Assembly (NCBI GenBank): GCA_020137815.1 | Contig: CM035362.1 | Span: forward strand, 1,178,001 to 1,242,000 | Reading direction: 5' to 3' | Length of the DNA stretch: 64,000 nt | Origin: Hormiphora californensis | Taxonomy: Eukaryota > Animalia > Ctenophora | Part shown: in pieces, positions 3,054 to 56,209 of the stretch | Layout of the letters: every line of letters begins with the position of its first letter | How positions within the stretch are numbered: the first letter of the stretch is position 1 | Program-made: the position numbers and the translations under genes | Notes under the pieces: model-generated | What the model was told of the DNA's origin: nothing | Databases searched by the model: none | The model's input: only the letters and a program-made list of their open reading frames with translations

Positions 3054-6000
3054 TTAAAGTTTCGCTCCAGTGAATTTGATCAGTCCATCGGTGCTCATAG
3101 ATTTAGGTCGCTCCAAAGGCAGTCCAAGAGCTCGGTCCCAAACCTGCGAGAGGGGAGTGGGATTAGAGATGGGTGGGATTAGAGAGGGGTGGGATTAGAG
3201 AGGGGATAATAAAGTGATAGAAAGATTAGTAAGATCTAAAAGGACTAGAACTGAAGTGAGAGAAAGAGATGTATAGAGAGATAGATAATAGAGTGTAAAG
3301 ACCAGGCCAGGCCGGAGGCCCAAGTGTTAAAAACTATTTTAGAAACACGCACACATAGAGAACAAGCAGCAGAAGCGTCGAGCAATTTGGAGCTCTACTG
3401 TACATTTAATTACCGGAACTCGAAAAGAGTCATTAACACGACTATAAATTAAGTAATAACATCAGCGTGAATAGTGAACTGTTAGTATGCACTATGGTAT
3501 GGACTATCAATTATTCTCTATTAAATTAGAAGGGGAATGAGAGGGTAGAGGAGGGATGGGAAGGAATGAGGGTATCAACTTACGAGGGAAGAGAGGACTC
3601 CAAGGGCACGAGATACTCCAAACATAACGGTATAATAGCTCATCTCGTTCAAGTTGTAGTGCTGTGAGGGGTGGAAGGGGTTAGTGGTGTAATGAGACGG
3701 GGGGAAGTAGCCAAGATAGGGATGATAATAGTTCACTTTGGATGTGGACATTTGAATGAGTTAGTACAGTTTCTATTACAGTTTCTAGTACAGTTTCTAG
3801 TATAGTTTCTTACCTGTAGAAGAACACCAGAATGGGCATCAACATTGGGCCAGGGGTTCTTGGCCTTACCCTGCTCCAACAAAACACCAGGTACAATACT
3901 GAGGGGGAGAGGAGTGTTAGTGAGAGTGGTACTTAGAGCGAGGGAGTCAAGAGTATTACTGAAAGGGATGTGTTAGGGTTGACACAGAAAGAAGAGAGAA
4001 GATTGTTAGAGGTATAGCACACAGTAGTTCCTTCTCCTTATCTTACTTGTAAAGTTGAGAAACAAGTTTGAAGAGCTCATCATCAGGTAGATGTTTCAGG
4101 GCAAACTCCCTCTGACAGGTATATCGGGGATCGGTCTTTCGGAGGACAGCATGACCATATCCAGGCACAACCTGATTGGAATATTGTGTAACGAACAGGA
4201 ACAATCTTATATGGATATTCAGCAAATATTAATACGTCGCTTATATACTTTGAAGTACGATGTCAAATTGTCAACAATTCAATTTGTAACGAATTCTTCA
4301 AGTTTCAACCCACCTGTCCTGATGCGAGAGTGTTCCAGATAAAGTCCCTCATGTCAGCATCAGATACACCATCACCAACCTGCTCTCGCAGCTTGGTCAA
4401 CCAGACAAGCACCTGATGGGGAGATGGGTTTAGTTGGAGGTGCAAACTGTATCCATCATTGACAGATGGAAAAGTTCTGGGGGATATAATCAGTTTGCCC
4501 ATAAAGCAAACAAATCACAATATATTTCCAATATTTGTGGAAATTGAATTGTCTGTAGGAAGAAGACTGTGAGGCACTTTTGTCATTCATAGCAACTCCC
4601 ACGAGTAGAGGGATCATAGACTCCCTATAATGATACCCCCTCCCGCCCCCCCTCCTTATTAAATGAAGTGGTACTGTTACTACCGATCACACCGGCGTGT
4701 TACTAATGCAGGAACTGCAACCGGCGTGATAGAAGTGTGTAGGGAATAATGCGGGGTAAAATGTAAAAGGGCAAAAAGGGGAACATAGCATGTTTACACA
4801 GGATACCTTGCTTTTGGGCACTGCCCCCCCCCCCCCCCCGGCCCCCAGTACAGTATTTAAAGTGTGCGGAAATTACCTAGCATCTACCCAGCGATCTAAT
4901 TAGCTTATTAACGATATAATTAGCCAATTAATGACCTAACCATCTAATTAACTAACTAACGAACCTCTTGGTTGGCGAGTCCGTGGAGGGGTCCAGCGAG
5001 GCCGTTCATACCAGCAGCGAAGGACAGGTAGGGGTCAGACAGGGCGGATCCCACCAAGTGGGTTGTGTGAGCTGACACATTGCCTCCTTCGTGGTCACTT
5101 GGAGGGGTAGGGGGGATTAGTAATGATGAGTGGTTAATGAACTAATTAACAAACTAATTAATGAACTAATTAAACAACTAATTAAACAAATAATTAACGG
5201 TTTAATTACCTGTGGATGGTAAGGTAGAGCCTCATGAGTTCAATAAACTGAGCATCATCGAATCCCATCATGTTGGCGTAGTTGGCACTCCAATCTTTGG
5301 AAGGGTCAATGGGGGCAACCTGCAATTAGGGGGATGGAGGGGTCAATAAGAATTAAATAGTAGTTAATTATTAACTACTTAATTGAAAAAGAAGTTGTCT
5401 CTTCAAGGGTTTTGGTGAGGGTCTGAGTGGTAAACCTACCTGTCCGTCCTTGAAGGTATTCCTGTAGATGGCGGCAGCAATGACTGGTAGTTTAGCAATC
5501 AGATCCATAGCGTCCTCGTAGCAAGTCTGGAAGGGTGGGAGGGTGAGAGGGAGATTGTGAAATATAATAATTTAGAATGTGATGTGTATAACATGATAGT
5601 ATAATGAGAGAATCGAACTTGGGAGCCATGTTGGTAATGGCGGAGCCCTTGGTTGGTTAGTGCTTTGCTTGTTTCAAACATTTTCCCGAAAGTATTACTT
5701 ACATCCCAGTATTTGGTCTTGTGGACTCCATCAGCGTATGCCTTAGCGAACTTGCTCTCAGACTGTAGGGCAGTGATGGCAGCGCTGAACTGGGACATGG
5801 GGTGGAGGGTGGAGGGGAAGTTCTTGATCATGGAGGCAACATGTGAGGGGATGTCAGCCCTGGCTGCCCATTCAGAGGATAGAGCTGCAACCTGAGGAGG
5901 AAGGGTGTTAGTAAGTACCTCGACCAAAACGCGGCGTTTTTACGTCAGCCGACCCGAAACCGGATTAAATTTGGCCACCCGCTGGTCTCAGGGCCTCCAA

Positions 6001-9000
6001 ATATGTCAAAATATGTCTGAATTGTCATTTGGGATCATGCAGACCTTTTAATTACATGTAATTACCCTTTAATTACATGTAATTACGCTTTAATTACATG
6101 TAATTACTTCCAATTACATTCCAATTACTTCTGCACCTCGAGAGCTTTCGAACGCACCCTAGAACACCTTTCTACTCCTTCCAATTGCCGAGTTCTGTAT
6201 ACCCCTTATTTTGACTGTTTTTCGCGTCCTACCCCTTATAGGTTTGGGTATGGCCATCGCCACACCCCCTATACGTCGCGGGACCTCGAGACCTTTCCAA
6301 CGAGCCATAGAACACCTCCCTACTACTTCAGGGGGCTTCAAAACTTTCACTCTAAAAATATCTATGGTTTATGGTTTATGGTTTATGGTTTTACTAGTTA
6401 CCAAAACGCGGAGTTTTTACGTCAGCCGACCCGAAACCGGATTAAATTTTGCCACCCGCTGGTCTCAGGGCCTCCAAATGTGTCAAAATATGTCTGAATT
6501 GTCATTTGGGGTCATTTAGACCCTTTAATTACATGTAATTACCCTTTAATTACATGTAATTACCCTTTAATTACATGTAATTACTTCCAATTACATTCCA
6601 ATTACTTCAGCATCTCGAGAGCTTTCGAACGCACCCTAGAACAACTTTCTACTGCTTCTAATTGCCGAGTTCAGCATACCCCTTATTTTGACTGTTTTTC
6701 GCGTCCTACCCCTTATAGGTTTGGGTATGGCCATCGCCACACCCCCTATACGTCGCGGGACCTCGAGACCTTTCCAACGAGCCATAGAACACCTCTCTAC
6801 TACTTCAGGGGGCTTCAAAACTTTCACTCTAAAAATATCTATGGTTTATGGTTATGGTTTACCTCGACCAAAACGCGGAGTTTTTACGTCAGCCGACCCG
6901 AAACCTGATTAAATTTGGCCACCCGCTGGTCTCAGGGCCTCCAAATATGTCAAAATATGTCTGAATTGTCATTTGGGGTCATTTAGACCTTTTAATTACA
7001 TGTAATTACCCTTTAATTACATGTAATTACATTTTAATTACATGTAATTACTTCCAATTACTTCAGCACCTCGAGACCTTTCCAACGAGCCATAGAACAC
7101 CTCTCTACTCCTTCTAATTGCCGAGTTCTGTATACCCCTTATTTTGACTGTTTTTCGCGTCCTACCCCTTATAGGTTTGGGCACACCCATCGCCACACCC
7201 CCTATACGTCGCGGGACCTCGAGACCTTTCCAACGAGCCATAGAACACCTCTCTACTACTTCAGGGGGCTTCAAAACTTTCACTCTAAAAATATCTATGG
7301 TTTATGGTTTATGGTTTACCTCGACCAAAACGCGGAGTTTTTACGTCAGCCGACCCGAAACCTGATTAAATTTGGCCACCCGCTGGTCTCAGGGCCTCCA
7401 AAAATGTCAAAATATGTCTAAATTGTCATTTGGGGTCATTTAGACCTTTTAATTACATGTAATTACCCTTTAATTACATGTAATTACATTTTAATTACAT
7501 GTAATTACTTCCAATTACATTCCAATTACTTCAGTACCTCGAGAGCTTTCGAACGCTACCTAGAAAATCTTTCTACTCCTTCTAATTGCCGAGATCTGCA
7601 TACCCCTTATTTTGACTGTTTTTCGCGTCCTACCCCTTATGGGTTTGGGTACGGCCATCGCCGCACCCCCTATACGTCGCGGGACCTTGAGACCTTTCCA
7701 ACGAGCCATAGAACACCTCTCTACTACTTCAGGGGGCTTCAAAACTTTCACTCTAAAAATATCTATGGTTTTATGGTTTTATGGTTATGGTTACTCGACC
7801 AAAACGCGGAGTTTTTACGTCAGCCGACCCGAAACCTGATTAAATTTTGCCACCCGCTGGTCTCAGGGTCTCCAAATATGTCAAAATATGTCTAAATTGT
7901 CATTTGGGGTCATTTAGACCTTTTAATTACATGTAATTACCCTTTAATTACATGTAATTACATTTTAATTACATGTAATTACTTCCAATTACATTCCAAT
8001 TACTTCAGCACCTCGAGAGCTTTCGAACGCACCCTATAACACCTTTCTACTCCTTCTAATTGCCGAGATCTGCATACCCCTTATTTTGACTGTTTTTCGC
8101 GTCCTACCCCGTATAGGTTTGGGTATGGCCATCGCCACACCCCCTATACGTCGCGGGACCTCGAGACCTTTCCAACGAGCCATAGAACACCTCTCTACTA
8201 CTTCAGGGGGCTTCAAAACTTTCACTCTAAAAATATCTATGGTTTATGGTTTATGGTTTTATGGTTTTATGGTTTTTTTTCATCTGGTATTAAGGGCCTG
8301 TCGGCTCGGCCCCGTTGTTTTAGTTTTAGGGGGGATGTTTTAGTGGGGATGGGTTGAGTTTGGGTTATATTCGGGTCGGGGGGCCTTGCCAGGCCCCGAA
8401 TCGACCAAAACGCGGAGTTTTTACGTCAGCCGACCCGAAACCGGATTAAATTTTGCCACCCGCTGGTCTCAGGGCCTCCAAATGTGTCAAAATATGTCTG
8501 AATTGTCATTTGGGGTCATTTAGACCCTTTAATTACATGTAATTACCCTTTAATTACATGTAATTACCCTTTAATTACATGTAATTACTTCCAATTACAT
8601 TCCAATTACTTCAGCATCTCGAGAGCTTTCGAACGCACCCTAGAACACCTTTCTACTGCTTCTAATTGCCGAGTTCAGCATACCCCTTATTTTGACTGTT
8701 TTTCGCGCCCTACCCCTTATAGGTTTGGGTATGGCCATCGCCACACCCCCTATACGTCGCGGGACCTCGAGACCTTTCCAACGAGCCATAGAACACCTCT
8801 CTACTACTTCAGGGGGCTTCAAAACTTTCACTCTAAAAATATCTATGGTTTATGGTTATGGTTTATGGTTTTATGGTTTTTTTTCATCTGGTATTAAGGG
8901 CCTGTCGGCTCGGCCCCGTTGTTTTAGTTTTAGGGGGGATGTTTTAGGGGGGATGGGTTGAGTTTGGGTTATATTCGGGTCGGGGGGCCTTGCCAGGCCC

Positions 9001-9738
9001 CGAATACTATAGGGGAAGGTAAACGCAATGTTTTCACCTCAGAACATTAAAAAAACGAGTCTCACTGGGTCCTAAACCTGTTAATTACCTGTTCCTGTGT
9101 GGGTACCTCTCCAGTACACAGCAACCAAAAGAGGCCCTCAGGCAGGGGTTCCTCACCTCCCTCGGCGTGGGGCAGGAGCTCCTGGCAGTCTGGGATGGTG
9201 TATCCTCGGAATCGGATACCCTCATCAGGGTCAAGAACTGAGGTCTCAGTTACCAGACCTGAAGATTTGGAATCACTCGATTAGTCAATAAAGTTCAGAT
9301 TTTCAGGTTGAATGAGAGACATTATAAAGCAATGAGAAACAAAGTAACAACAATACAAAAACACCATGTTTTACAACAGGACTGTTTTGGAAAATAGAAC
9401 TGTTTTTTAACAACTCACCCTTGATTCCCCTCATACCACCATACATCATGTCCACGGTGACCTCTCCAACTACCTGGTTACCAGCAGCCTTCCTAAACTC
9501 CTTGATCTGGGCCTGCTTCTTTGGGATGAGCTCCTCAAGACGCTCCTTCAGTCCCTGTATCATGGAGATAGGGGTCAGGGAGGGAAATCAACCAAGATAG
9601 ACATAAAATAACGGTGTCAGGGAAAGAAGAAGATAAACAGATGTGACAACTTACACATGAGGAAGACATGGCTCGTGTTAGAAGGACATTACTGTTGGCG
9701 AACTGCTGACCGAACTTTCGAACAAAGTTAAGGCTCAT
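3054..9738 (-). CDS. CS: Citrate synthase (eukaryotic type), multi-exon
   Basis: Exons encode [28 protein letters not shown] (presequence-like), [161 protein letters not shown] (stop 3054-3056). Confidence 0.97.
5920..9004. repeat. Head-to-tail array of six ~460-600 bp units in a citrate synthase intron (Helitron/Helentron-like non-autonomous concatemer)
   Basis: Units start at about 5920, 6400, 6864, 7321, 7795 and 8401. Each has AAAACGCGG(A/C)GTTTT, CCGACCCGAA, 2-3 palindromic TAATTACATGTAATTA and a (TTATGG)n microsatellite. Only the last two units add a ~120 bp tail with TTCGGGTCGG and the hairpin GGGGCCT-TGCC-AGGCCCC. The array is directly visible; the TE class is inferred. Confidence 0.85.
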
Positions 9739-10283: not shown

Positions 10284-13200
10284 TCATGACCGTCGTTTCA
10301 GTGTGAATTTACCCTTTTGTAATTGGGAAATTGTGATCTTCAGCTTTGTCATATCAGTAATCTTCTTCACTACAATATCACTGAGGGAAAGAGGGTCATT
10401 CAATTATTGGGATAAAATAGTCGAGTGTTGTATAGAGTTGTGAAGAACACAGCAAGAGGTCAGTACCTGGAACAGATTGACTGAATGACAGCAGGTAGTT
10501 TCCCCTGTTCCCTACTTTCCACAAACACATTCTGATATCGCCCATACCACTTTCTCTCGTAGTAAAGTCTGCCATCTTCAACCTAGCAGAATTAGCTATT
10601 TGTAAAAAAGGAAAGTAAGAGATCCCCGGGCCCTTTATTATTACAAGTAGGCACGGCAGTATGACGTGACTCAAATGGTTGTATTAGAGCAACGGACAGT
10701 AGAAGAGAGTGTTAAACTAAAACAGCACTGAAGTTTCATGAAGTGTGCTATTGAGCTAATGTTTGTGTTACACCTATATTTCCGGTACCGGCATTTTGCA
10801 CACACACGGCACACACACCTACCCATACACACACCTATATAACGCCCAGTCACACACAATGAAACATTGTGGCCCTCCAGATGTCTTAACATAGCTGCAC
10901 TCTTTTCTTCCGTGTGTGTAATAGTGTCACTATTTCGTGTAAAATTCCCTCAATACTCTCACTGACTCTCTCTCTCTCTCTTTCCTCTTCTAAATCTCCC
11001 CTCTCTCTTCAACAAGGAATAATCTAGCAGACCTGCTTCTTACATCTTAGCATCATACAATCTCACTATAACTAATACTCATGCATGAATAACAAGATAG
11101 AAATGGTTTGATTTCCCTAAAGAATTATTATTAACAGGTTGTGAATATGTGAAACCTGTACAGCGTACCTTGATGTCGGTTACAGGGCGTTCTCTGTGTT
11201 CAGTTTCCTCACAAAAACTCAGGTTGGCTTTCCGTTCTCGTAACCTCTCAGCTTTATGAGGCGGGAGAATCTGACGTGGAGAGGAGTTTGGTTATTTTGT
11301 TGTAAAACTCTTCAAACCCGTCGTGTACAAGGGAAGATCACCAAGTCTAACTGCTACTCATGTTGTTCTAAATGCAGCCTCTTACCTGGAGTAGATCTTC
11401 CTCAATCTCAGCATCAGAAAGAAGGAAATTGATGGCAGGAGAGGGAGGTTTATTGCTCTTTCCATCATCCTTATCCTGATGTAGAAATAGGAAGATGGTT
11501 AGTTTTATGAAGGAGTAACTTTAAAGACCCGGTATGTATCCACTCTCTACCCTACCTTAAATGAATTTGCACTGCTACGTGGTTTTATCAGTAGGGAAAT
11601 GAGATACTGGACTCAGATTACAGAAAAAGGAATTAGAAGTAGCAGCAAGAGAATGGGGATTATTTTACACTATCCAAATTCCACGTTCTACCACGAGGGA
11701 TGGAATGGTAGTGATGTGGTGCTGAACTGAGCTTCGCTCTTCTTGGCGCCATATCACTACAAGCCCGATCAGTCAACCTCCGCGTCGGTCCATCCTGGAA
11801 ACGTACTCCGTGTGTGTGGTCCGGTTTTTTGCTCGGGGTTGGGTGGTCTTTGGCCTTGTTGTGGGTGGTCGTGCTCCTGGTTCCGGCCGAGATGGGCTCT
11901 CTGTCTTGGCGGGGACTGGGGTGCGGTCGTCTTGGGCGGGGTCGGGGTCTTCCCTGTCCGTCGGGTGGGGGATCGGGCTGTGTGCGTGTTGTGCGGCTAA
12001 TGACTGCGGACGTGAGCTGCTATCTCCCATTAAGGGAGTAAATTAAACGCCAGAGAACTAGCCTCGCTCAATATTGGCACCGAGGGCCTCTGCCTTGTAG
12101 GCATGCCTGTTGACCCGGCAGCTGTAGCCTTTAAGACAGCCCTTCAGTCCAGCATACCATTGGTAGGACGGAGGTTACCTTCTCTCGCAAAAAATAGGGG
12201 TTATTCCCCTGGGGAACCTCTGCCCAAATTTTTGCCACATACTACCGTGTGGGGCAATAAAAATGCCCCCCCAGGTCTACCATAGTTGCAGAAATCGTGG
12301 AGCGCTAAAATTTGGTTCAGTAACTCTATGAGACAAATAAATAACTTGACCAAAATTTCAGACCTCTAGCTCAAAATTCATTTTTTTGATCGGAATGAAC
12401 ATTGTCATTCATTCCAGGAAAAAATATTTTCCGGTTCAAATTTTAACCAATTATGTTTGGCTATCGATTAGCTTTCCAATGTGACCAAGATCAGCTAAAT
12501 TGGACAACCACAAGAGACACAGTGTCATGTTTCTTAAAGTTAGTCAGGTCATGTGATCTTCACTGATTCGTTGATCGTGTTCAGTATTACGAATTGGTCT
12601 AAGTGGTAGAGAATCACGTATCACATCTGCTAAAGAGGGATGACGATGCTGATTGGTCATGAGATCTGTAGCTCTTTGATAAATGTCCTCTTTCCTCGAA
12701 TCACATCACCCTGTATTGGTACACATACCCAATTAGCGGCCATGATACGAGATTCCTTTGCCCATTGGCCCGATTAGCAATCCCGGAAACTCAACGATTC
12801 GGTGAAGATCACATGACCTGACTAACTTAAAGCAACATGACACTGTGTCTCTTGTGTTTGTCCAATTTAGCTGATCTTGGTCCCATTGGAAAGCAAATCG
12901 ATAGCCAAACATAATTAGTTAAATTTTGGACCGGAAAATATTTTTTCCTGGAATGAATGACAATGCTCATTCCTATCAAAAAAATGAATTTTGAGCTAGA
13001 GGTCTGAAATTTTGGCCAAGTTAGTTATTTGTCTCATAGAGTTACTGTACCAAATTTTAGCGCTCCACGATATCTGGAACTATGGTAGACTTGGGGGGGC
13101 ATTTTTATTGCCCCACACGGTACCTTTGCAATATCTCGCAAATTAAAAATCAAATATTCCACTGCACGGACTACTATACTGCTGGAAAACCTACTACAGG

Positions 13201-16200
13201 CTACCCAAACTAAACCAAAGAAGTATTAGTTTTTTGATTCCGAAAATATGCCTAAATTCAAATTCCTCTCTCAGCCCTAGATGTCCTTGCAAACACAGCG
13301 AATAATATATATGTACTCCAATCTGCTTCAGATTGAGAGATAAGGATATGTGATCCGTAAAGCCTACTCACAGGAGGGCGCGAAGATACTTTTATAGAGC
13401 TAAATACCGCGTGGCCCAAATTAAAGGGAGGGTACGTTGGCCTTCTTTTTACCCAGAAGTTTAATTTCAATCACTCTGATATTTTGACACAATGTCTGCA
13501 TGGGTACTCATTCGAGGAATCTGAAGTTTCAGCCCTCTGGATAAAAGTTCATTTTTTTCGACAGAATGAACATTGAATGAACACCAATATGGGGCCATAT
13601 TTCGGTACCAGAGTTTCACAAATTTGTTTGGCTATCGATTTCCTTTTGAATGGGACCAGTTTGAGCTTAATTGGATCACCACAAGAATCACAGTGATCCG
13701 TTTTCTAAGCCTAGGGTAAGTCATGTGATCCCCATCAAATTATGACGTGTTAGCAAGAGAGCTTACATTTTAACGGATGCTGTATCGGTACACCATCCTC
13801 ATTAGCAGACGTGATACGTGATACTCGACCGTTACACCTGCTTATTGGCACTTAGTAATGACGCTATCGTCTCATTAGGTGTCAGATGACCAAACCTAGA
13901 GTTAGATAACTAGACACTGTGTCTCTTGTGGTGGTCCAATTGAGCTCAAACTAGTCGCGTTTGAAAGGAAATCAATACCCGAAGGCGACTGTGAAATTCC
14001 GGTTCTAAAAAGCATTCCTGTTTTCAAGTTCATTCAGGATTCATTCCAGTCGGAAAAATGAATTTTAAGATAGAGAGTTTAAATTCCGGCTAACATCAAA
14101 ACTGATAAAGTGTAGTGGCCGTACAGATTTTTAGCGCCTGAATTTACCGATTTCTGGTCAAAACAGGTCAAAATCGATATTTGGTAAAAAATATCATCTT
14201 TAAATAACTTATTTCACCCACTAAACTAGATTCAATTTTAATAAAAATGCAGATTGCCATTTGTTGATACTTGCTCTATTGTATGGCGGTTTTTTAAATA
14301 ATTAAATCGAATTTAATAAGGAGAAAACCTCAAAAAACCCGAAAAACGAAAAATTGAGTTCATTAATGAACTTTCAACTTTTATGATTTGAAACTTCGGA
14401 TTCCTCGAATGAGTATCCATGCAGACATTGTGTCAAAATATCAGAGTGATTGAAATTAAACTTCTGGGTGAAAAGAAGACCAACGTACCCTCCCTTTAAT
14501 TTGGGCCACGCGGTACATCACCCGAGTATCCGATAATGGATAAAGCAATGATCATCCTTATCGTAGTCCCGTAAATAGGAAGATGAACTAATCAAATAAC
14601 ACCACAAGCCACTACGCGATATCAACCACCGAGATTTGTAGTTTAAATTAAGGCCTAGCGGCCTCCTAATCGCATTAACAAATACACAAATAATGACAGG
14701 CTAGACAACCACTCGGCACATATCTCCCCCTATAGCAACCTACATGACTCTGTTTTCGTAAGCCCCGCAACAGTTGAGTACCACTTCTACTACTCCTCCT
14801 CGCACCAGTCCACATGGTACGCAAACCACTGTGTACCACCGCGAGTAACCCAGACACAATTGGCACTCCGGCCGGTGACCTAGTCACAATTGGAACACCG
14901 CCAGTGATCCAGTCGCAATTGGAACCCCGCCAGTGACCCAGTCGCAATTGGCACCCCCGCCAGTGACCCAGTCACAATTGGCACCCCTGTCACACATGAC
15001 ACATTAGACAAACTGTACTGCTTCGGCAGTGCATATACCAAACCTAACCTCGCATGGCAAAATGTAGCCTAAACAATTGCAATCCCCCCGCCAAAATCTA
15101 TGATCTGAAGAGTATTCACGAATACGAGGGGGAAATACTTATGGTGTTAATATGATCGATAAGAGCCCGTGACCACCGGGCAGGTCGAGGTCAACAGGAC
15201 CACCTACGGCCAGACATCTCTGGAGACATTAGAAAACGCAAAGTGCCGCCTCTGGAAGCTGATACTTAGCAAATGCTTGCCAGTGTGAATCGATTTAAAG
15301 CTACCGCTATTGGAAAATAGTCGCCGGACTCCCAGGCCGTAGGCAGATCTGTCATACTAAGGGTACTGACCCAAAGCCTGAGATGTGTAAGATACGTTGT
15401 CAGCGACACCGTAGTCCGCTACAGTGAACCATCGTTACATCGTATCCGGCAACCCACCTACTTCTACAGTTGCTTGCAACAGTAGTAACCAGAGACCAGT
15501 CACTCGGACAGGTAAATTCCGCCACTGTCCTTGTAATAGACGGGCGTCTACTTCCTTCGTATGCAATACCTTTCTCGCGGTGCCAAACAGGGCAGGGGGG
15601 AACTCAGCGGGCAGCAAGGAGGGGGGGGGGGAGTAAGATCCCCTATCCCCTCTGCGCGGCCTGCTGGACGAACCCAGGCTCGACTTGGAGAACACCGACA
15701 CGTGACCTTTTTGTGTGGGGACATGTGGCGAGAGGTGAATTCCTAGGGGCAGGCTGTCTCGTCTTACATGACAGCTAAGTGGGTCGGAATGTTGGGAGGT
15801 ACTAAACACACACACACACACACACGTTCTACCACGAATCAAATTCCCAGACACGGAACGAGAGCTCTAGATCTAAACACTAAAACTCTTGGTAACACTT
15901 ACTGGATCATTTTGACGTCTCCTCAGTTTTCTAGTGAATGAAGGTCTGTTCTCGAAGTTATCAAGGGGTGCTCCGTTCAACTCCGCTGCATTGTGTTCCG
16001 CTTCTATCATCTTCTTCTTTTCCTCTAAACCTGGACATTGAATCAGCTCGCGACATTTAGGACATTGACCCAACCAACCATTACCCGGACTAAAATGTGA
16101 GAATAAACATTTGAAATGTCTAATTATAATTTTACCTACTTGATAATAGGTTTTCCTTCAAAGTCACTTTCTTGTGGTCGAAATCATCCTTCAGCCGCTT

Positions 16201-17603: not shown

Positions 17604-18037
17604 ATTGATTAAAATTGATTAAATCGGGTAGAATTAAAAGAATTATATAATAAGTTAATATCTTGTTTTTCACTCTTGTATTGTATTGTTTTGGTAAACT
17701 TATTGCCTCTATGGCCCCTTAAACTGATCACAGTTGTTCTGAGCAGGGTGAAGGACAATCGCTGCCTGATATAACGGATGGTATCAGGATAAGCCTGTTT
17801 GGTTTTGTCAGCAAGCAGCTTTGCTAGGCGCCTGTAGAATTTTTCTGCCTCGTTGCCCAGGGCACCAGTTATTGAAAACACAAGAGGGCAAAAACAGCTC
17901 TGCTCGACCTCAAGGACCCGTTCGTTATAGCACCGTTTTTTCTCGTCCTCGTGCCGTTTCAGAGCTGTGTCGAGCGGGATGGCACTGTTGGTGGGTGCCA
18001 ATGGATTAAAGATACGAACATCCGTGTAAATTTTGTC
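17604..18037 (-). mobile_element. 3' part of a CRE/SLACS-like non-LTR retrotransposon (restriction-like endonuclease C-terminus)
   Basis: DKIYTDVRIFNPLAPTN...RHEDEKKRCY...FCPLVFSITGALGNEAEKFYRRLA...IRQRLSFTLLRT continues in frame from the 20841-21400 fragment; possible TTTAATCAAT x2 tail. Confidence 0.75.
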
Positions 18038-18068
18038 TATTGTGACAAGTGAAAACAAGTTTTTTACA

Positions 18069-18109
18069 CAATCAACAAATGTTTCACGCGAATGCGATCG
18101 TCAGGATTA
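18069..18109 (-). ncRNA. Minimal type I hammerhead ribozyme in the Penelope 3' pLTR
   Basis: Reverse complement of the 20706-20746 copy. Confidence 0.7.
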
Positions 18110-18150
18110 AAAATGTAAACTTGTTTACTCGTTAACAGTCCTCTGCTCCT

Positions 18151-20185
18151 TCATAAAGTTGGATGTTTCATGAGTTTAACGGCTAGATACTTCCTCTTGT
18201 GCGGACACTTGTTTAACAGTTCGCTCTTCCTGTTTATCAGGTCCTTCCCTCTGAGGATGTGGTACTTTTCCGCCAGACACAGATTACAGGTTATATTACC
18301 AGGTTGATATGTGCGAGCTTTGGCTAATAATCGCCATGTTATGTCATGTCTTATGTCTCTGTCCTTTAGTCTCCAGACTAGTTTGGACAGTTCTGTCTCG
18401 TTTTTGTATCTGTCGTGTCTGAATGTAGTTTTGTGTGTGTTCAGTCTGGATTTAAACGTCCCCTCGGCCATTCCGACGTATTTTGACTCCTTGTTCCCGT
18501 GCTTCACAGTAGCCTCGTACACTACCCCTGTTGTTAGGCACTTTTTATTTACGGGGCATGATTCGGCTTTCCTGCAGTTGCATTCCTTTCCCTTCCCTTC
18601 ATGCATCTCTTCTGCTTTCTTCAGGAGCTTCTTGTTGGTAGCCTTGACGATGCTGTCCATGTTCATCATTGTAGAGTAGGACAATTTTACCGTCTTTTTG
18701 TTGAAGAGCCGGTGAAATGGGTGTTGGGGAGGAAAGTGCAGCCTCAGTAGGTCGAAAAACTGTTTTCCGATATCCGTAGCCACATTTTTCGAGAATGGCG
18801 GGTTGAACCAAATGATTTTTCTCGCCCTTTTCCTCTTCCGGTGTTTTCCACCTTGCTGAATTTTTGTGAACTTCATGTCAGATTTGTATCCTGCTTTTAC
18901 CAATGCCTCTTGGTAGACATCCTTGCATTCTTCGAATTCTTTCTCCGAGTGCGATAGACTGCATAGGCGGTCCTGTATGGTCCTTGGGATGTTTTTCAGG
19001 ATTACAGGTGGGTGGTTTGAGGATTTGTTCACGTAGGTGGTGTTGCTATTGGGTTTCCGGAATGGTTTGAAGGTTCCTGTCTCTGCGTTGAGAGTGACGT
19101 CCAGTATATTCACAATTTTTCCCACTTGTTCCACCGTTATTTTCATTCCGTTGTTCTTGAATAGCCGGTGCAGGTGTTTTTCAATTCGGTTTAAAAGTGG
19201 TCCGTTGCTGTTGTTGATGTATATCAAACCATCGTCTCTGTACAGTCCGCTGTGGCAACCCTCGTGGTTTGATTCTAGGTAGTTCTGGATTTGCTGTAGC
19301 AGGTATATTCCTACCAGGTCAGATGCTTCGGCTCCATCTAGTGCACCCATGGTAATATCGAAATTTTTGTCTTTTTTCCTCCACACTTTGTTGTCACTGA
19401 ACAGTACGCTCTTCCTGCATGCCTTAATCACCTCAACATGTTCTGGTGGTATGTCTGTTAGTGATTTTGCACTCTCTATTGCTCTGTCCATGAGATTTTC
19501 GGAGATTGATGGGTAGAACTCGGCAATATCAAATTGGAGTAATGATGCTTTTTCTGGTTTCGGATTTCCTTCGTGCCTTTTTTGAAACCATGATAGCAGT
19601 TGTTGGGTGCTGATCCATTGGGATACTCCGGATTTCCTCTTTACTTCTTTGATTATGCCTTCCAGAATTAGCTTGCTGGCTTTTCCCAGTTGGTTTGAAG
19701 ATGGGTTTATTAGCCTGCATTTGGGAGCATTCTGGAACCCTTCTTTGTGGTCTTTGACCGATATGAATGCTGGTGCCTCGCTATGGCATTCGATTCGGTC
19801 CTCAATTTTCAGTGTCCTGGCTTGGTTGCAAATCTCTTGGTTGATCTTTTGTAGATTGTTGTCATTGTCAATTTTGTAGTCTTTTGTAATTGTGTTGGTC
19901 AGTAGTTGTCTGTAGTCAGTCAAGCTCACACTGTACCTGTTCTGTGTTTTATCTGCGTTGAGGATGATGTTCTTAGTCTCTCTGATCTTTTTTGCCTCCT
20001 TCCCCATTTCCAGTAGCGTTGGGTCTTGAACTTTCCGGAATTCTATATTCCCTATGAGATGGTATACATCCCGTTCAAAGGGCTTTAGAAGATCGTGTAT
20101 GGGAGGAGTTTTTGTAGATTTCAGGATTTTTTTGAACTTTGTTCCTTCTTGGTCTTGGTCTTGGTCTTGGTCCGTGGTTTCCTCC
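18151..20185 (-). CDS. Penelope-like reverse transcriptase-GIY-YIG endonuclease ORF (5'-truncated by the inversion)
   Basis: ADKT, CRLINP, FDIAEFYPSI, MGALDGAE, LYRDDGL, PFRKP, YVNKSSNHPP, WFNPPFS, CNCRKAESCP, GVVYEA...YVGMAEGTFKSRLNTHK, CNLCLAEK, CPH; about 680 codons uninterrupted. Confidence 0.93.
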
Positions 20186-20705
20186 AGCTCCTGAAGAAAG
20201 CAGAAGAGATGCATGAAGGGAAGGGAAAGGAATGCAACTGCAGGAAAGCCGAATCATGCCCCGTAAATAAAAAGTGCCTAACAACAGGGGTAGTGTACGA
20301 GGCTACTGTGAAGCACGGGAACAAGGAGTCAAAATACGTCGGAATGGCCGAGGGGACGTTTAAATCCAGACTGAACACACACAAAACTACATTCAGACAC
20401 GACAGATACAAAAACGAGACAGAACTGTCCAAACTAGTCTGGAGACTAAAGGACAGAGACATAAGACATGACATAACATGGCGATTATTAGCCAAAGCTC
20501 GCACATATCAACCTGGTAATATAACCTGTAATCTGTGTCTGGCGGAAAAGTACCACATCCTCAGAGGGAAGGACCTGATAAACAGGAAGAGCGAACTGTT
20601 AAACAAGTGTCCGCACAAGAGGAAGTATCTAGCCGTTAAACTCATGAAACATCCAACTTTATGAAGGAGCAGAGGACTGTTAACGAGTAAACAAGTTTAC
20701 ATTTT

Positions 20706-20746
20706 TAATCCTGACGATCGCATTCGCGTGAAACATTTGTTGATTG
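20706..20746 (+). ncRNA. Minimal type I hammerhead ribozyme in the inverted pLTR
   Basis: Stem I UAAUC/GAUUG; CUGACGA; stem II (U)CGC-AUUC-GCG(U); GAAA; 1-bp stem III C-AUUU-G; GUU cleavage triplet. Matches the minimal hammerheads known from Penelope-like elements. Confidence 0.7.
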
Positions 20747-20840
20747 TGTAAAAAACTTGTTTTCACTTGTCACAATAGTTAAGCTCTCCGCATCCCCGGA
20801 TCGAGCACTCTACCAGGATACTAACTTCTACATCTAGCTA

Positions 20841-21406
20841 GTGTAAATTTTGTCCATAGGAAGCCAAAAATCCCTAGCAGCAACATCGAGGCGAGCATCG
20901 TTTGCAGTGTTCGCGGATTTTAGCCGGAACGTTTCGCCAGTGATTGGGAGAAGATGGGGTTCTCTTGAAACATCACGGCATCCGGCCTCTTTCAACAAGT
21001 TTGCAGTAAGGTCCCGGATCTCATTGTGTCGGAGCTGTACGTAACCGCCAAGATGACAAGAGAGGCTGTGTTCAGTGGTGTTAGGTTTTCCACACGGACA
21101 ATTTGGTGGTCTACCCTCAAGTTCCAAGCAGTAGCGGAGGGACATGGAGTCCCAGAACTCCTGTTTGTTCAGATTGAACCTATGTTCCTTGAGGGGGAGA
21201 GATGTTACCCATATGGAAGACCCTCGCCGTGTTCTCTCTTGGTGGAAACGCTGTTCGTTGGGTGGTAGTGCCTCTCTCACAAGTTCTTCAGCCTTGGTCT
21301 GGTTCAGCCGTTTGGTGGTCAACATCTCGGATTCCAGCTCCCGCTTAAGCAAGTGCAAACTCTCTGGATCAAATTTGGGAGCGGAGTCCGAATTTGTTGA
21401 TATATG
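20841..21406 (-). mobile_element. 5'-truncated CRE/SLACS-like non-LTR retrotransposon fragment (zinc knuckle and RLE start)
   Basis: SSIWVTSLPL...EFWDSMSLRY...CPCG...HSLSC...RHNEIRD...ARLDVAARDFW..DKIYT; RT domain absent. TTACTGC at 17597-17603 and 21407-21413 is a possible TSD (tentative). Confidence 0.75.
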
Positions 21407-22926: not shown

Positions 22927-50468
<27,542 letters not shown>

Positions 50469-52751
50469 CTAATGAATTAATTCGATAAATTGGTAACCAA
50501 GGTACAGATGTACTGGAAGAATGACATTGAATATTTAATATTTACCTTTTTGTCTTTAGATTGATTCCTCCTTTACTCGGGCCTTGTTGGTAACTCCGTA
50601 AAATATCGTTTTATCATACTACTGCATGTATGACACTAGAACAAGGATAATATCGGGTTATAGCGTGAAATGGACGATTTACAAAAAAAACAAATGAATA
50701 ATTTAAGATATAAAACTTTAGAAAGCAGCATAAAAATAGCCCCGGCCCCACGGCACAGACCTAACTACCAAACTTGTTACATATCATCAACAAAGGCATA
50801 ACAAAACAAGACAAACACTCAGTTTAATCAAACTGTGTATGTTTGAGTATTGAGGCAGTGTGTCAATTTGCAAACACGCTAACACACAAAGAGAAAGAGA
50901 GATAGGTCGATATTATTCAATCGCCTCAGTTGGATATGCAATAATGAGACACAGTTCATCTTCTCTATTCAAGAATCAGAATCGATTAAAGAATAGCACG
51001 AGACAAGCTTCTCACCATACACATACAGACTCGGTCGCTTCTTCTTCTATAAAAGTGTGTAAACCTACTATTGCTATAGAACTGTGTACATTCTAAAGTG
51101 TGTGTCTACCACCACGAGCAAAAAGGCGGCGGATAAATGTTTTGCCAAAAAAGGGCACAACTCATGAGCGACTTTCTAGACGAAGTTACAGACTCTATCT
51201 AATATCACCCTTTATTTGTTGTTGACCTATAATAACGAAGTAAATAGTAAGTTGAAGGCAGCTGTTGATGTTCTTGGAGGGGCGTGTAAAACAAACGCTT
51301 GAGTAATTTCACAGATCCACGTCTACTCTGTCATAGATTTGCGTACACACGTGTCAAAATAAGCAAGCCCTAACAGTTAGGCCGGGCGTTTCTGAATTTA
51401 TTTCACCGAGGCTTCAAATTTAACTTCTAATTTTCATGCCACTTTTCTTTAAATTTTCTTTAGTCTTCAGTTGTTTCGAATAACAAACTCGTATCAACGA
51501 TAGCAAATTCAAATCGTTTGCCACAGCATCGAAAAGATTTGTAAAGAACATGGAACCCACATGGAAATTTGTATTTTAGCATCTGATTGTGTTATTGGGA
51601 TTTCTTGTTTGTAGAATGAAAAAAAAAACAGAACGACAGGCACAGTGCACCAGAATTTTAAGGGGAGAGCGCTCCCATAACTAGTCCTTGATACTGAGAA
51701 TTATCAGCTGTACAGAAGTCAGAAATGGATGCTCTGTGCTAATTTTACGAAAAATATCACAAAGAATAATACATCATAACAAGGTGCACCAGGTGCGTGG
51801 AAGTTTGGGGGAAATTGTATTGAATGATATCTGATCAAGATTAAATAGTGAAGAAAAAAAAGAAAAATGTCTGGCGAGGGCCGGGCTGAGCCCGGCCATC
51901 GCCAGACATTGTTCTACCCCAACGACAGCTACCCCAACGACAGTTTAACTAAATTTTCCCGCGGTATATCCATCGTGTTCCTATAGTTAAGCCTTTAGGC
52001 CTTTAGGGAAGAATGGTAGAATTAACTCAATTCAATTGATCGACCAATTTTCATTAACTTTTAGCCTATTCGCTAAAATTAACGTTTTTAGGAGCTATCA
52101 TGTGTTCTCAAACCAGAGGGAAGAACTACCTCTACATGGCAGTGGACTGAGAGCCGTGAGGTAGTGAGCAGATTTCTAACTTAGTAAACAGGGTGTGAAC
52201 TGCATGTCGTGTTTGCTAGTCGCGAGCGCGCTTGCGAGACAAGCAAACACGTCTAGGTTCATTAACAAGCATGCTGCTCAGTCATTTTAGATTTAATACA
52301 CAATGTAAGGATACCATGTAATAGGTGAGACTCTTGCCGTCACCCTCGTTCAAGTCCCGTGAAAAACGGAGCAGTACACGCAAACTGATGCCCATTTTCC
52401 TCGCGTGACCCCGATTCAGCAGTTTGAGACACCAACTCTTTAGGGGGCCATATCTCAGGAACCAGACAAGATAGGAAAAATCGCCGTCTAACGAGGCGTA
52501 CAGTTTTTAATCTAGTTTACCACTGTACCGGCCGTTTCACTCTCCGACCTAAAACAAAAATCGCAACCCCACAAAACTTCAAAATAATGAAATTCGCATC
52601 TCGCATGTCGTGTTGCATGTCGTGTTGCATGTCGTGTCATGTTATTGACGCGCTCGCGTTCAACTCTCACACAGCAGCTGCAGAACATGGCGGGAAACAT
52701 CGAGGAGTAGAGAGAGGGTCGGTGCCGAATCAAATATTTCTTGATCTTGAT

Positions 52752-53340
52752 CTACTCCATCTCTCAGCTATCCTACCCCTCATCAACTCGATCTCTCAGC
52801 TACCCTACCCCTCATCTACTCCATCTTTCAGCTACCCTACCCCTCATCTACTCCATCTTTCAGCTACCCTACCCCTTATCTAGTCCATCTCTCAGCTACC
52901 CTACTCCTCATCTACTCCATCTCTCAGCTTCCCTATTAGGGAAGCATAGAGATGGAAACGATTAGGGGTAGGGAATCCCTATCCATAATCGTTTCCATCT
53001 CTATGCTTCCCTAGCCCTCATCAACTCCATCTTTCAGCTACCCTACCCCTAATCTAGTCCATCTCTCCGCTACCCTACTCCTCATCTACTCCATCTCAGC
53101 TACCCTACCTCCCTTACTCCTCTCCACTACCCTACCTCCCTTACTCCACTCTCAGCTCCACTCCCATTTACTCCATTTGTTACCTACCCCCATTTCCATA
53201 TTCAGCTTCCTACTGCCATTACTCCATCTCTCAGTACCCTACTCCCTTTACTCCATCCTCATCTACCCTTTTCCCCCATTTATCCATCTCTCAGCTTCCC
53301 CCTTTTCCTCCCTTTACTAACCCTTTCCATTCTCAGCTTC
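52752..53340. repeat. 32-bp C/T-rich minisatellite, decaying rightwards, with an embedded 77-bp hairpin
   Basis: CTACTCCATCT(C/T)TCAGCTACCCTACCCCTCAT units; hairpin at 52937-53013. Confidence 0.85.
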
Positions 53341-56139
53341 CACACTGCCGCAACATACTTCTTCTTCGCAGGACTTCTAGCTTCTCCTCACTGTGTGGAT
53401 GGTAGGTTATATTGGAAATCGTGGAAAGTATGGCATCAACATGACTGATGGAATAGTTTGATCAGGATTTAGCCGCGGTTTATTTATATCAGTGACGCAG
53501 TGACGCATGGTATACACACAATACCTGTAAGGAGCGGCTTCTTTTGGGACTACTAGGAGCACCACATTCTCTACATACACCTTGGTAGGGGCAGTCCATA
53601 GGGCCTTCCAGGGGATCTGAGAGGGGGGATTGGGTCACAGTTCTGATTTCGATAGGGGTGGCTCACATTTTGAGTCTCAGGAAGAGAAGTGTAGAAAAAG
53701 GACTAATAGAATATTAGTGCTGAGGGAATGGACGAACAAGCAAACCCATGTCAGCTATTGTGACACATCCTCTGTGTACCGCATAGAATATGCAAAAGCA
53801 ATTGACAATTACGCACAGACAGACAGACAGATAGACAAACAGACAGACAGACAGACATACAAAGTAATAGATTTATGGCATGTGTGAATAACTCATTACC
53901 AATAAATTGACTTGATAGAATCTTGGTTTCATTGTTCACACCAATAGTGTTGGAGGGTGCGATATGATATACTACCCCACCAGCCTCCACCATCTCCAAA
54001 TATGACTTGATAGAACTTTATAGCAAATTACTAATAAAATGTCATGATAAATTAATGAAACGTGGTATCGAGATGACTTGTAAATGGGATGGTATTTTGA
54101 TGTGTCACTATACTATGCATCTTATTTAATTGATTATTTAATTGTTGGGTAATTACAGTGACATTGCGTAACAAAGAGTAGTGTGCATTGTTCTACGTAT
54201 ACACAGATCTAGCGAAAGGTCAAAAGTAAACACACAGTAGCTGTCAATAGAAGCCAGCAGTATATTCAATTCAATACACGCCAGTAGTATATTCAATTCA
54301 ATACACTACATGCCAGTATACGCAATAGTTAATTCCAAGACTGTACAATGATTAACACACCTGTAGTTCGAGTGATCCAATAAGGCCAGTGTGTACAAAA
54401 ACAGGTAGATCAAGTTTAGCTAGGGCTTCTGATTTTAACCGCAGGTTCTTCAGCACAACTTTGCCTGATGGAAACATCAAATAATTAGATATGAGTTGAT
54501 CTTCAAGTTAGATTTATTGGCATGTTTTATATCCCCACTACTATTAGATCAATATCATCTCAGATTAGTTACAGGGTGGTCCAGGAAGTTATATCTAGAA
54601 AGTGGCTCCCTGAAGCACCCTGTATAATAATCACATACCACTCCATACGGCTAGTTTCAGATCTTTGCTGTTGATATCCTGAACGAACTCGCCAAGGGCC
54701 TTGTCTAGTACCGTCTCTAGCACCCTCTCAAACATCTAATGAATTAATTCGATAAATTGATAACCAAGGTACAGATGTACTGGAAGAATGACATTGAATA
54801 TTTAATATTTACCTTTGGTCTTTAGATTGATTCCTCCTTTACTCGGGCCTTGTTGGTAACTCCGTAAAATATCGTTTTATCATACTACTGCATGTATGAC
54901 ACTAGAACAAGGATATATCGGGTTATAGTGTGAAATGGACGATTTACAAAAATAACAAATGAATAATTTAAGATATAAAACTTTAGAAAGCAGCATAAAA
55001 ATAGCCCCGGCCCCACGGCACAGACCTAACTACCAAACTTGTTACATATCATCAACAGAAGGCATAACAAAACAAGACAAACACACGGTTTAATCAAACT
55101 GTGTATGTTTGAGTATTGAGGCAGTGTGTCAATTTGCAAACACGCTAACACACAAAGAGAAAGAGAGATAGGTCGATATTATTCAATCGCCTCAGTTGGA
55201 TATGCAATAATGAGACACAGTTCATCTTCTCTATTCAAGAATCAGAATCGATTAAAGAATAGCACGAGACAAGCTTCTCACCATACACATACAGACTCGG
55301 TCGCTTCTTCTTCTATAAAAGTGTGTAAACCTACTATTGCTATAGATCTGTGTACATTCTAAAGTGTGTGTCTACCACCACGAGCAAAAAGGCGGCGGAT
55401 AAACGTCTTGCCAAAAAAGGCACAACTCATGAGCGACTTTAGACGAAGTTACATAGTCCATATAATATCACCCTTTATACTTTTATATATACTTTGTTGT
55501 TAACCTATAACGAAGTAAATGGTAAGTTGAAGGCAGTTGTTCTTGGAGGGGCGTGTAAAACAAACGCTTGAGTAATTTCACAGATCCACGTCTACTCTAG
55601 CTTAGATTTGCCGCAGACACTAGACAGCGTACACGTGTATCAAAATAAGCAAGCCCTAACAGTTAGGCCGGGCGTTTCTGAGTTTATTTCACCGGGGCTT
55701 CAAATTAAATTTCTAATTTTCATGCCAATTTTCTTTAGATTTTCTTTAGTCTTCAGTCGGATCTGGTTTCAAATAACAGACTCATATCAACGATAGCAAA
55801 TTCAAGTCGTTTACCGCATTATTGAAGAGCTATGTAAAGAACATGTAGCATCTGATTATGTTATTGGGATTTCTGTTTGTAGAATGAAAAAAAAACAGCA
55901 TGACACACGCGGTGCACAAGATTTTTTAAGGGGAGAATAGTAGGCTCCCGTAACTAGTTCTTGATACGAGAATTCTCAGCTGTACAGAAATGGATGGACG
56001 GGCAGGGAAAAATATCACAAATAATAAGACACTATAACACGGTGCACCATAAGGAGGTAAGCGTGGAAGTTTGGTGGAAATTATATTGAATGAGATCTGA
56101 TCATCAGGATTAAATAGGGAAGAAAAATAGAAAAATGTC

Positions 56140-56209
56140 TGGCACGGGCCGGGCTCGAACCGATACCCTTTGGGTTTCGCAATCCATTCTTCTACCATTG
56201 AGCTACCCC
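56140..56209 (-). pseudogene. tRNA-derived pseudogene or SINE head
   Basis: GGGGTAGCTCAATGGTAGA (A box) ... GGTTCGAGCCC (B box) ... GCCA, followed by T-runs; acceptor stem does not pair. Confidence 0.55.

What the first reader, a model, noticed from the sequence alone, without database searches (positions are those of the whole stretch)
11697..12006. HDV-like ribozyme with 66-nt J1/2, ~195-nt P4 and an extra long-range pairing
Seen: besides canonical P1, P1.1, P2 and P3, J1/2 contains an 18-bp hairpin rich in G-U pairs (11708-11725 / 11743-11760) capped by GAGC-UUC-GCUC, which suggests RNA-level structure. P4 is a long G/U-rich insertion. AGCCCGAUC (11762-11770, directly 5' of P2) is exactly complementary to GAUCGGGCU (11971-11979) inside the P4 insertion. 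Inference: an additional helix or pseudoknot may stabilise or regulate folding of this expanded variant.
Basis: partly seen in the sequence, partly recalled or inferred. Interest (0 to 1): 0.75.

Follow-up and report, generated by a model that had tools for sequence, protein, structure and literature searches.

The report
Self-cutting RNA heading a comb-jelly retroelement
This is a predicted self-cutting RNA of the hepatitis-delta type that sits exactly at the start of a multi-copy, non-coding jumping element in what is likely a comb-jelly genome; its job is likely the ordinary one of trimming the element's RNA, the proposed extra pairing is probably incidental, and the odd part is a predicted 84-pair hairpin almost free of adenine.

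Summary
The HDV-like fold is real: every core element is present, and it is the only descriptor hit in the window (0 in 100 shuffles). G11697 is the first base of a 4.1-kb insertion (11697-15822) with a 15-bp target-site duplication and an (AC)n tail, lying antisense in a host intron. In public runs 15 contigs join foreign flanks at 11696-11699, one contig bridges the site without the element, and no coding remnant was found. It is most likely the 5' processing ribozyme of a non-autonomous non-LTR retroelement, a known arrangement; the host is probably a ctenophore. The extra 9-bp helix is complementary as stated but poorly supported: its 3' strand already pairs inside P4, exchange is uphill, P4 pairs as well or better with other segments, one short-P4 variant lacks it, and no compensatory change was seen. 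The unusual feature is P4: a predicted 84-bp rod with 41 G-U pairs and 5 A in 194 nt that folds on the sense strand only. An ADAR-editing imprint fixed by retrotransposition is possible but weakly supported. Cleavage and transcription are untested. The scan held no earlier look-alike.

The parts
11682..11696 (+). left target-site duplication (15 bp), ending one base before the predicted cleavage site
   Evidence: exact repeat of 15823-15837, extends no further either way
11697..15822 (+). whole non-coding non-LTR retroelement insertion, 4126 nt; 2139 nt without the two nested MITEs
   Evidence: TSD, tail, depth step, shared 5' junction, empty-site contig
11697..11703 (+). P1 5' strand; G11697 = G1, predicted scission on its 5' side
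   Evidence: pairs with 11790-11796
11708..11760 (+). P1.2-type hairpin in J1/2: 18 bp (7 G-C, 7 A-U, 4 G-U) plus a 4-bp cap at 11729-11739
   Evidence: fold -33.4 kcal/mol
11761..11769 (+). J1/2 3' linker; 5' strand of the proposed extra helix; 11765-11767 could instead extend P2
   Evidence: no variant listed at 11762-11770 among 40 rows shown
11770..11775 (+). P2 5' strand
   Evidence: pairs with 12001-12006
11776..11789 (+). P3 (3 bp) and 8-nt L3; U11779 and G11784 at the positions of the L3 U-G pair; C11780-C11781 form P1.1
   Evidence: sequence; matches the Rfam RF00094 consensus line printed by eye
11790..11801 (+). P1 3' strand (11790-11796), P1.1 GG (11797-11798), 3-nt joint to P4
11802..11995 (+). 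P4: predicted 84-bp unbranched rod, 41 G-U, 38 G-C, 5 A-U pairs; 5 A in 194 nt
   Evidence: -102.0 kcal/mol, z -8.5 sense; -28.9, z +0.4 antisense
11971..11979 (+). 3' strand of the proposed extra helix; predicted to pair with 11818-11826 within P4 instead
   Evidence: pair probability 0.98-1.0 in P4 alone; extra pairs about 0.01 in the nested ensemble
11996..12000 (+). J4/2 with the candidate catalytic C11997
   Evidence: same letters as the RF00094 consensus J4/2 shown
12001..12009 (+). P2 3' strand (12001-12006) and possible 3-bp P2 extension (12007-12009) across a 2-nt bulge
   Evidence: -6.3 without and -9.2 kcal/mol with the extension
12243..13122 (.). nested palindromic MITE-like insertion with TA at both ends
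   Evidence: self-blast, ends, skipped by joints in X1 and X5
13405..14515 (.). second nested MITE-like insertion, 127-bp terminal inverted repeats, TA at both ends
   Evidence: skipped by joints in X1 and X5
14839..14987 (+). 29-bp tandem repeat inside the element
15806..15822 (+). (AC)n 3' tail
   Evidence: sequence
15823..15837 (+). right target-site duplication
11476..15902 (-). host intron holding the element in antisense orientation (4427 nt; about 290 nt before the insertion)
   Evidence: GT/AG ends and in-frame flanking exons 15903-16031 and 11386-11475; Sds3-like Pfam hit on an upstream exon is weak, E 0.05, below cut-off

Best explanation
The sequence has the complete core of an HDV-like ribozyme and begins at the first base of a multi-copy, non-coding insertion bounded by a 15-bp duplication and an (AC)n tail; it likely cuts itself out of read-through transcripts 5' of G11697, and the released RNA would be copied back into the genome by the reverse transcriptase of an unidentified partner LINE. 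Shown: the core, the boundary at G1, the TSD and tail, many copies sharing that 5' end, a contig without the element, nested MITEs, P4 length variants, no coding remnant in the frames scanned. Inferred: co-transcriptional folding into the double pseudoknot, Mg2+- and C11997-dependent scission (established HDV chemistry), trans-mobilisation by target-primed reverse transcription starting at the (AC)n end, and harmlessness of this copy to the host pre-mRNA because it lies antisense. P1.2 and the P4 rod are peripheral, self-contained hairpins: P4 can shrink to about 17 nt in a related organism, and pairing with itself likely keeps the sticky G/U strand away from the core. The extra 9-bp complement is probably incidental.
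For: Unique descriptor hit, 0 of 100 shuffles. The left TSD ends at 11696; only 2 of 53,980 window positions have a 15-mer that recurs within 10 kb right after an AC run, this one and a local tandem repeat. 7 of the 18 loose-end rows shown (15 contigs, 3 runs, 2 organisms) attach foreign sequence before 11696-11699, with agreement 0.55-0.72 in the multi-contig rows, so the flanks differ (36 rows not shown). Summed depth rises from 12-556 in the flank to 1,100-42,800 over 11622-12104 in X1, X5, X12 (not a copy number). X5 record 17 runs from 11676 to 15872 with only 42 letters between. No RT or endonuclease family in 12 frames scanned; no tblastn hit of a LINE RT protein in the window. 5' HDV-like ribozymes on LINEs and on non-autonomous derivatives are documented (PMC6765202, PMC4035085 passages).
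Against: No activity assay and no RNA evidence: the one RNA run laid gave 0 contigs, and no raw reads were offered. No two-sided compensatory change was seen in core or P4; the core is merely nearly invariant in the listed rows, with minor variants at 11774, 11781, 11787, 11802 and 11803. Rfam misses it. The nested minimum-energy fold does not show the pseudoknot. 13 unpaired linker bases with a 6-bp P2 resemble a construct that was about 175-fold slower in PMC4908430. The empty-site contig has 42 letters where 54 are expected, and its junction letters were not shown. The partner LINE was not found. The antisense frames of 11697-12244 and 13123-13406 were not scanned against Pfam.
Confidence: 0.85

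Rival explanations
1. One reading: 11762-11769 pairs with 11972-11979 as a third long-range helix that stacks on P2 and stabilises the fold, or acts as a folding switch.
For: Perfect complement, 4 of 1500 to 87 of 3000 by chance depending on framing. The Watson-Crick duplex (-15.8) is locally stronger than the wobble-rich P4 stretch it competes with (-12.1). No linker variant listed in three runs; 2 of 3 short-P4 forms keep the partner. One of P4's five A residues lies in it.
Against: Net uphill by 2.1 (9 bp) or 4.5 kcal/mol (8 bp) before loop penalties; about 1% in the nested ensemble; the fold with the extra helix is 4.9 kcal/mol worse than the one with P2. Cap loop (-16.5), downstream flank (-23.3) and tail (-17.7) pair with P4 better than the linker (-14.4). 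Partner absent in the 181-nt-skip form; C11974>U in all X12 depth at that place with no listed change at G11767. Only 11 nt would have to span from above P2 to below P1.1 (count; the geometric conflict is my inference from the recalled HDV architecture).
Confidence: 0.1
2. Origin of the P4 composition (compatible with the best explanation): ADAR edits the long duplex, reverse transcription reads inosine as G, and repeated retrotransposition fixes A-U pairs as G-U until almost no A is left.
For: Lowest A count of any 190-nt window in the 64 kb (4; 1st percentile 30; lowest T count 19), while the rest of the element has 21-35% A. 4 of 5 remaining A have a 5' G (p 0.12); G in G-U pairs has a 5' U in 17 of 41 against 8 of 38 in G-C pairs (two-sided p 0.058), the direction expected from the ADAR preference in PMC9989829, which also reports repeat editing in a ctenophore. 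A11890>G occurs in three runs.
Against: Neither neighbour test is significant, and without the basal GU repeats p is 0.15. Substitutions among copies keep pairs at the chance rate (19 of 30 against 18.4) and cannot be polarised. The 18-bp P1.2 keeps 7 A-U pairs. Selection against DNA palindromes or against a hairpin in antisense host transcripts, or growth from GU-type repeats, would give a similar rod.
Confidence: 0.2
3. This long-P4 copy is a slow or dead ribozyme; the family spreads by 5' ends made by other, compact copies or by an internal promoter like Pr77.
For: Long unpaired linkers and short P2 (analogy); sticky P4; this copy carries two MITEs and private changes; L1Tc's first 77 nt act as both promoter and ribozyme (PMC3383444, abstract in listing).
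Against: All core pairs are intact here; the long P4 is covered at high depth in both organism A runs laid, so long-P4 copies have multiplied; R2 ribozymes are reported with 216-498-nt J1/2 loops (PMC3774820).
Confidence: 0.15

Closest known systems
HDV-like ribozymes at the 5' end of non-LTR retrotransposons (R2, L1Tc/ingi, RTE, baggins)
   Same: Same core; cleavage site at the element's 5' end; conserved downstream and differing upstream sequence among copies; intronic location (PMC6765202 passages; PMC3774820).
   Different: No ORF found; not rDNA-specific; probable ctenophore host; 194-nt A-free G-U rod as P4.
Non-autonomous derivatives with a 5' HDV-like ribozyme (NARTc, RIME, SIDER, R2 SIDE)
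   Same: Non-coding, TSD-flanked, ribozyme at the 5' end, needs a partner's enzymes (PMC4035085 passages).
   Different: About 2.1 kb, (AC)n tail, partner LINE unknown, a ribozyme of 310 nt rather than about 77.
drz-Agam-2-1 (P1.2-containing HDV-like ribozyme)
   Same: Stable hairpin in J1/2 between P1 and P2 (PMC4908430).
   Different: Agam-2 has a 12-bp P2 and short linkers; here P2 is 6 bp (9 with a bulged extension) with 13 unpaired linker bases, and P4 is very long.
Rfam RF00094 HDV_ribozyme
   Same: L3, P3, P1.1 and J4/2 letters agree with the consensus line by eye; 11 loci pulled out by the same core pattern were among those tested and 9 of 14 tested loci hit RF00094 at E<=1.
   Different: The window's copy itself gives no Rfam hit.

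Membership tests
HDV-like ribozymes | Nested double pseudoknot: 7-bp P1 starting with G (G-U first pair), P2, 3-bp P3, 2-bp P1.1 | tested here: met
   0 of 100 shuffled windows
HDV-like ribozymes | L3 with U-C-C...G and J4/2 with catalytic C and following A | tested here: met
   11779-11786 and 11996-12000 against the RF00094 consensus printed (by eye)
HDV-like ribozymes | Rfam covariance-model score at or above the gathering threshold | tested here: not met
   compact models of 74-89 positions do not span the 66- and 194-nt insertions (inference), so this is a detection limit rather than a defining failure
HDV-like ribozymes | Covariation of core helices among homologues | tested here: inconclusive
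   only two close organisms, short contigs; core nearly invariant, no two-sided change listed
HDV-like ribozymes | Mg2+-dependent self-cleavage abolished by C-to-U at the catalytic C | not testable with these tools
   needs a bench assay
Non-LTR retroelement insertion | Target-site duplication and simple-repeat 3' tail | tested here: met
   15-bp TSD and (AC)n tail
Non-LTR retroelement insertion | Interspersed copies sharing the 5' end, and an empty site | tested here: met
   15 contigs with foreign flanks at 11696-11699; bridging contig in X5, junction letters not seen
Autonomous LINE | RT and endonuclease ORF | tested here: not met
   0 such Pfam families in 12 frames; no tblastn hit
RTE-clade dependent SINE-like element | 3' end shared with an autonomous RTE partner | not testable with these tools
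   no host genome held; no body similarity to the 27 fetched loci, including the LINE in L014

The most novel reading that the evidence does not exclude
The P4 rod is a heritable record of RNA editing: a ribozyme-headed retroelement of a ctenophore whose long duplex was edited by ADAR and copied back into the genome over many cycles, turning an A-U/G-C hairpin into a G-U/G-C rod that forms only in the element's sense RNA and is largely invisible as DNA palindrome, as antisense hairpin and as further ADAR substrate.
Probability: 0.2. Interest if true: 0.75.

Novelty: new variant of a known kind. Interest (0 to 1): 0.42.

Why it matters
The core finding extends a known device, the 5' HDV-like ribozyme of non-LTR elements, to a non-coding family in a probable ctenophore; my searches listed no such report, though key papers and their supplements were not readable. 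The TSD ending one base before G1 and the shared junction give genomic support for the cleavage site without an assay. Natural P4 lengths of about 17, 58, 77 and 194 nt in one family make a ready series for testing how much peripheral RNA the fold tolerates. If the A-free wobble rod came from editing fixed by retrotransposition, it would be a clean, datable case of RNA editing rewriting a genome.

Tried and rejected
No host genome is held, so no genome-wide copy alignment or R-scape-type test was possible. Rfam: no HDV family on the window; the single weak hit (RsaE, E 6.5) is chance. Exact 23-base core pattern in metagenome contigs: 0. Degenerate core pattern: 27 loci in metagenome contigs, 0 in viral contigs; none shares the element body, three share only the 25-29-base core, so they are other ribozymes or chance. 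My strict descriptor recognised only 3 of those 27 loci, so it is specific but insensitive. No second copy in the window. tRNA head (tRNA-derived SINE): 0 tRNA genes in the window. X7 (organism B) gave only 6 low-depth pieces. G-quadruplex in P4: 12 runs of three or more G, but the rod still wins with G4 allowed. Endogenous delta- or viroid-like RNA: rejected, since there is one ribozyme in one polarity, a TSD and a tail, and no Pfam hit in the sense frames. Covariation in P4: 0 two-sided changes among 30 pairs touched in three contigs grouped by equal depth; those contigs carry gaps, so registers may be off. Paper searches for an ADAR imprint in retrotransposed hairpins, for G-U long hairpins with ribozymes in retrotransposons and for extended P4 listed nothing on point by title and abstract start. 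Earlier scan notes: none alike; one unrelated phage ribozyme note, not used.

Full report
1. Observation. L3 and J4/2 agree by eye with the RF00094 consensus line printed. A descriptor of this topology gave one hit on the two strands of the window, with a single P1 start (11697) and a single P2 partner (12001), and 0 hits in 100 shuffled windows. Rfam itself does not find it; I attribute that to the insertions. The J1/2 hairpin has 18 pairs, of which 4 are G-U.

2. A self-comparison showed an exact 15-base direct repeat, 11682-11696 and 15823-15837. The left copy ends one base before G11697; the right copy follows an (AC)n run; the repeat extends no further on either side. 15-mers recur within 10 kb at 4102 of 53,980 window positions because the window is repeat-rich, but only 2 of 53,980 do so right behind an AC run, this one and a local tandem repeat. 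The enclosed 4126 bases hold two MITE-like insertions with TA at their ends (12243-13122, 13405-14515); without them 2139 bases remain. Twelve frames of the non-MITE parts (six of 14516-15822, three sense frames each of 13123-13406 and 11697-12244), read through with X at stops, gave no RT or endonuclease family; the only hit was DUF6083 at E 0.027, below its cut-off. A LINE RT protein gave no tblastn hit in the window. The element lies antisense in a 4427-nt intron (11476-15902) between two in-frame minus-strand exons with GT/AG ends. An upstream exon has a weak Sds3-like hit (E 0.05, below cut-off); the flanking exons have none, and the SDS3/BRMS1 label otherwise rests on my recall. A Med16 ORF of the window has 4 hits at 46-48% identity; the only named members of their clusters are from Mnemiopsis leidyi and Bolinopsis microptera, so the host is probably a ctenophore, not close to those two.

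3. Other copies. 20 of 22 listed public runs hold part of the stretch; all are contigs. Laid on 11300-16100 (X1, X5 organism A; X7 organism B; X12 organism C), summed depth is 12-556 in the two left-flank bins and 1,100-42,800 over 11622-12104 in X1, X5 and X12 (the tool warns that this is no copy number). One 1001-nt X5 contig at flank depth covers 11300-11676 and 15872-16100 with 42 letters between, where one TSD copy would give 54: an allele without the element, junction not shown. Joints skip each MITE in X1 and X5. On 11660-12040, 7 of the 18 loose-end rows shown, 15 contigs in three runs, attach foreign sequence before 11696, 11697 or 11699, with low agreement among contigs; 36 rows were not shown, and 3 other 'before' rows lie inside the ribozyme. 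So many insertions begin at the predicted cleavage site. In X12 three joints shorten P4: 11809 to 11991 (4 letters between; about 17 nt, by eye a 7-bp stem), 11816 to 11970 (17 letters between; about 58 nt) and 11846 to 11967 (3 letters between; about 77 nt), one contig each. All keep the base of the stem. The RNA run X8 gave no contig, so transcription is not shown.

4. The extra helix. The complement is exact, but C11770 belongs to P2, leaving 8 pairs. Against shuffled P4, 9 pairs arise from the linker in 4 of 1500, from J1/2 in 32 of 1500 and from the non-P4 part in 49 of 1500; 8 pairs in 60 of 3000 and an equally stable duplex in 87 of 3000. In the folded P4, 11971-11979 pairs with 11818-11826 at probability 0.98-1.0; freeing it costs 17.9 kcal/mol against 15.8 gained, or 17.4 against 12.9 for 8 pairs. 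With the core held open, the fold that uses the extra helix is 4.9 kcal/mol worse than the one that forms P2. P4 is sticky: of six single-stranded segments tried, three pair with it more strongly than the linker. One of three short-P4 forms lacks the partner strand. C11974>U is seen in all three DNA runs and in all X12 depth at that place, with no listed change at G11767; it gives a G-U pair in either helix and so does not discriminate. For the helix: no variant is listed at 11762-11770 in the 40 rows shown (4 hidden), two short forms keep the partner, and the energy gap is not large. A simpler use of the linker is a 3-bp extension of P2 (11765-11767 with 12007-12009; -9.2 against -6.3 kcal/mol), which fits the report that P1.2-type ribozymes need an extended P2 and short linkers to be fast (PMC4908430, first quarter of the text read). 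I put the extra helix at about 10%.

5. The P4 rod. P4 folds as one unbranched hairpin of 84 pairs: 41 G-U, 38 G-C, 5 A-U. Sense strand -102.0 kcal/mol, z -8.5, 0 of 200 shuffles as good; antisense -28.9, z +0.4; as DNA -19.9 and -9.3. Nesting depth is 84 against at most 68 in 200 shuffles. It is the most A-poor 190-nt window of the 64 kb. Variation among copies adds no support: 19 of 30 touched pairs are kept against 18.4 expected for those substitution types, and none changes on both sides (phasing inferred from equal depths, contigs gapped). Among six common variants five keep a pair and one (11754) breaks it. For an ADAR origin: 4 of 5 remaining A follow a G (p 0.12), and G in G-U pairs follows U more often than G in G-C pairs (17 of 41 against 8 of 38, p 0.058; p 0.15 without the basal GU repeats); PMC9989829 (passages) reports repeat editing in a ctenophore and a 5' preference for U and A and against G. 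This is suggestive only. Selection against DNA palindromes or antisense hairpins, or growth from GU repeats, are equally open.

6. Mechanism. Most likely (85%): read-through transcripts of copies fold co-transcriptionally, C11997 and Mg2+ catalyse scission 5' of G11697 (established HDV chemistry; PMC13635239 passages), and the freed RNA is reverse transcribed from its (AC)n end by a partner LINE, giving TSD-flanked copies that all start at G1. Steps shown are genomic; all RNA steps are inferred. This copy, being antisense, would not cut the host pre-mRNA.

7. Comparison. It works like the 5' ribozymes of R2, L1Tc, RTE and baggins elements and their non-autonomous derivatives (PMC6765202, PMC7761336, PMC4035085, passages; PMC3774820, passages and one section). 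Long J1/2 insertions are known (216-498 nt in silkmoth R2; P1.2 in Agam-2), and large L4 loops are mentioned for R2. Membership of the HDV-like class is met on structure and untested on activity; it is not an autonomous LINE; the LINE clade is unknown. I found no paper on a ctenophore HDV-like ribozyme (passages of two listed papers read were not on point) or on an A-free G-U rod as P4. Ruminski et al. 2011 was not held, Webb et al. 2009 was not read, and I saw no supplements; their species lists may already include such elements.

8. Verdict. A real feature; new variant of a known kind; interest 0.42. The proposed extra helix is probably incidental. The strand-specific, A-free P4 rod is the part worth following.

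Noticed in passing
L014 499-3537 (similar 5' ends in L003, L006, L009): An HDV-like core directly behind a (GT)n run heads a LINE ORF of over 1000 aa with endonuclease and RT domains; Rfam gave no HDV hit on these four loci at E<=1. An RTE-like clade is my guess from recall.
   Followed up: partly
L001, L004, L005, L015, L020, L021, L022, L025, L026: Compact HDV-like ribozymes in metagenome contigs, often several per contig (4 RF00094 hits in L004, 3 in L025), several just upstream of an ATG.
   Followed up: no
window 15325-15807: The element's 3' part is deeper than its 5' part in X5 (52,000-75,000 against 17,000-43,000): 5'-truncated copies or a 3' end shared with a partner LINE.
   Followed up: no
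window 11714-11717: One X5 contig has 37 other letters here, a different J1/2 hairpin.
   Followed up: no
window 15804-15822 with about 11962-11990: The (AC)n tail can pair with the GU-rich 3' arm of P4 (-17.7 kcal/mol); possibly only P4 stickiness.
   Followed up: no
window 12243-13122 and 13405-14515: Two related high-depth MITE-like elements with similar ends and 70-79% internal similarity, both nested in this one copy.
   Followed up: partly
window 17609-21406: A 700-aa minus-strand ORF (18151-20253) that looks like a Penelope-type RT with GIY-YIG end (label from recall; no Pfam hit), with a perfect 593-bp inverted duplication 18037-18629 / 20186-20778.
   Followed up: no
window 5916-9005: Tandem array of about 474-bp units inside the citrate synthase gene region.
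   Followed up: no
window 49076-52128 and 53336-56387: 3.1-kb direct duplication at 87% identity.
   Followed up: no
window 44848-45491: 644-bp palindrome, 89% self-complementary.
   Followed up: no
window 57581-59992: Single open frame of 803 aa for Mediator subunit 16, used to place the host.
   Followed up: yes
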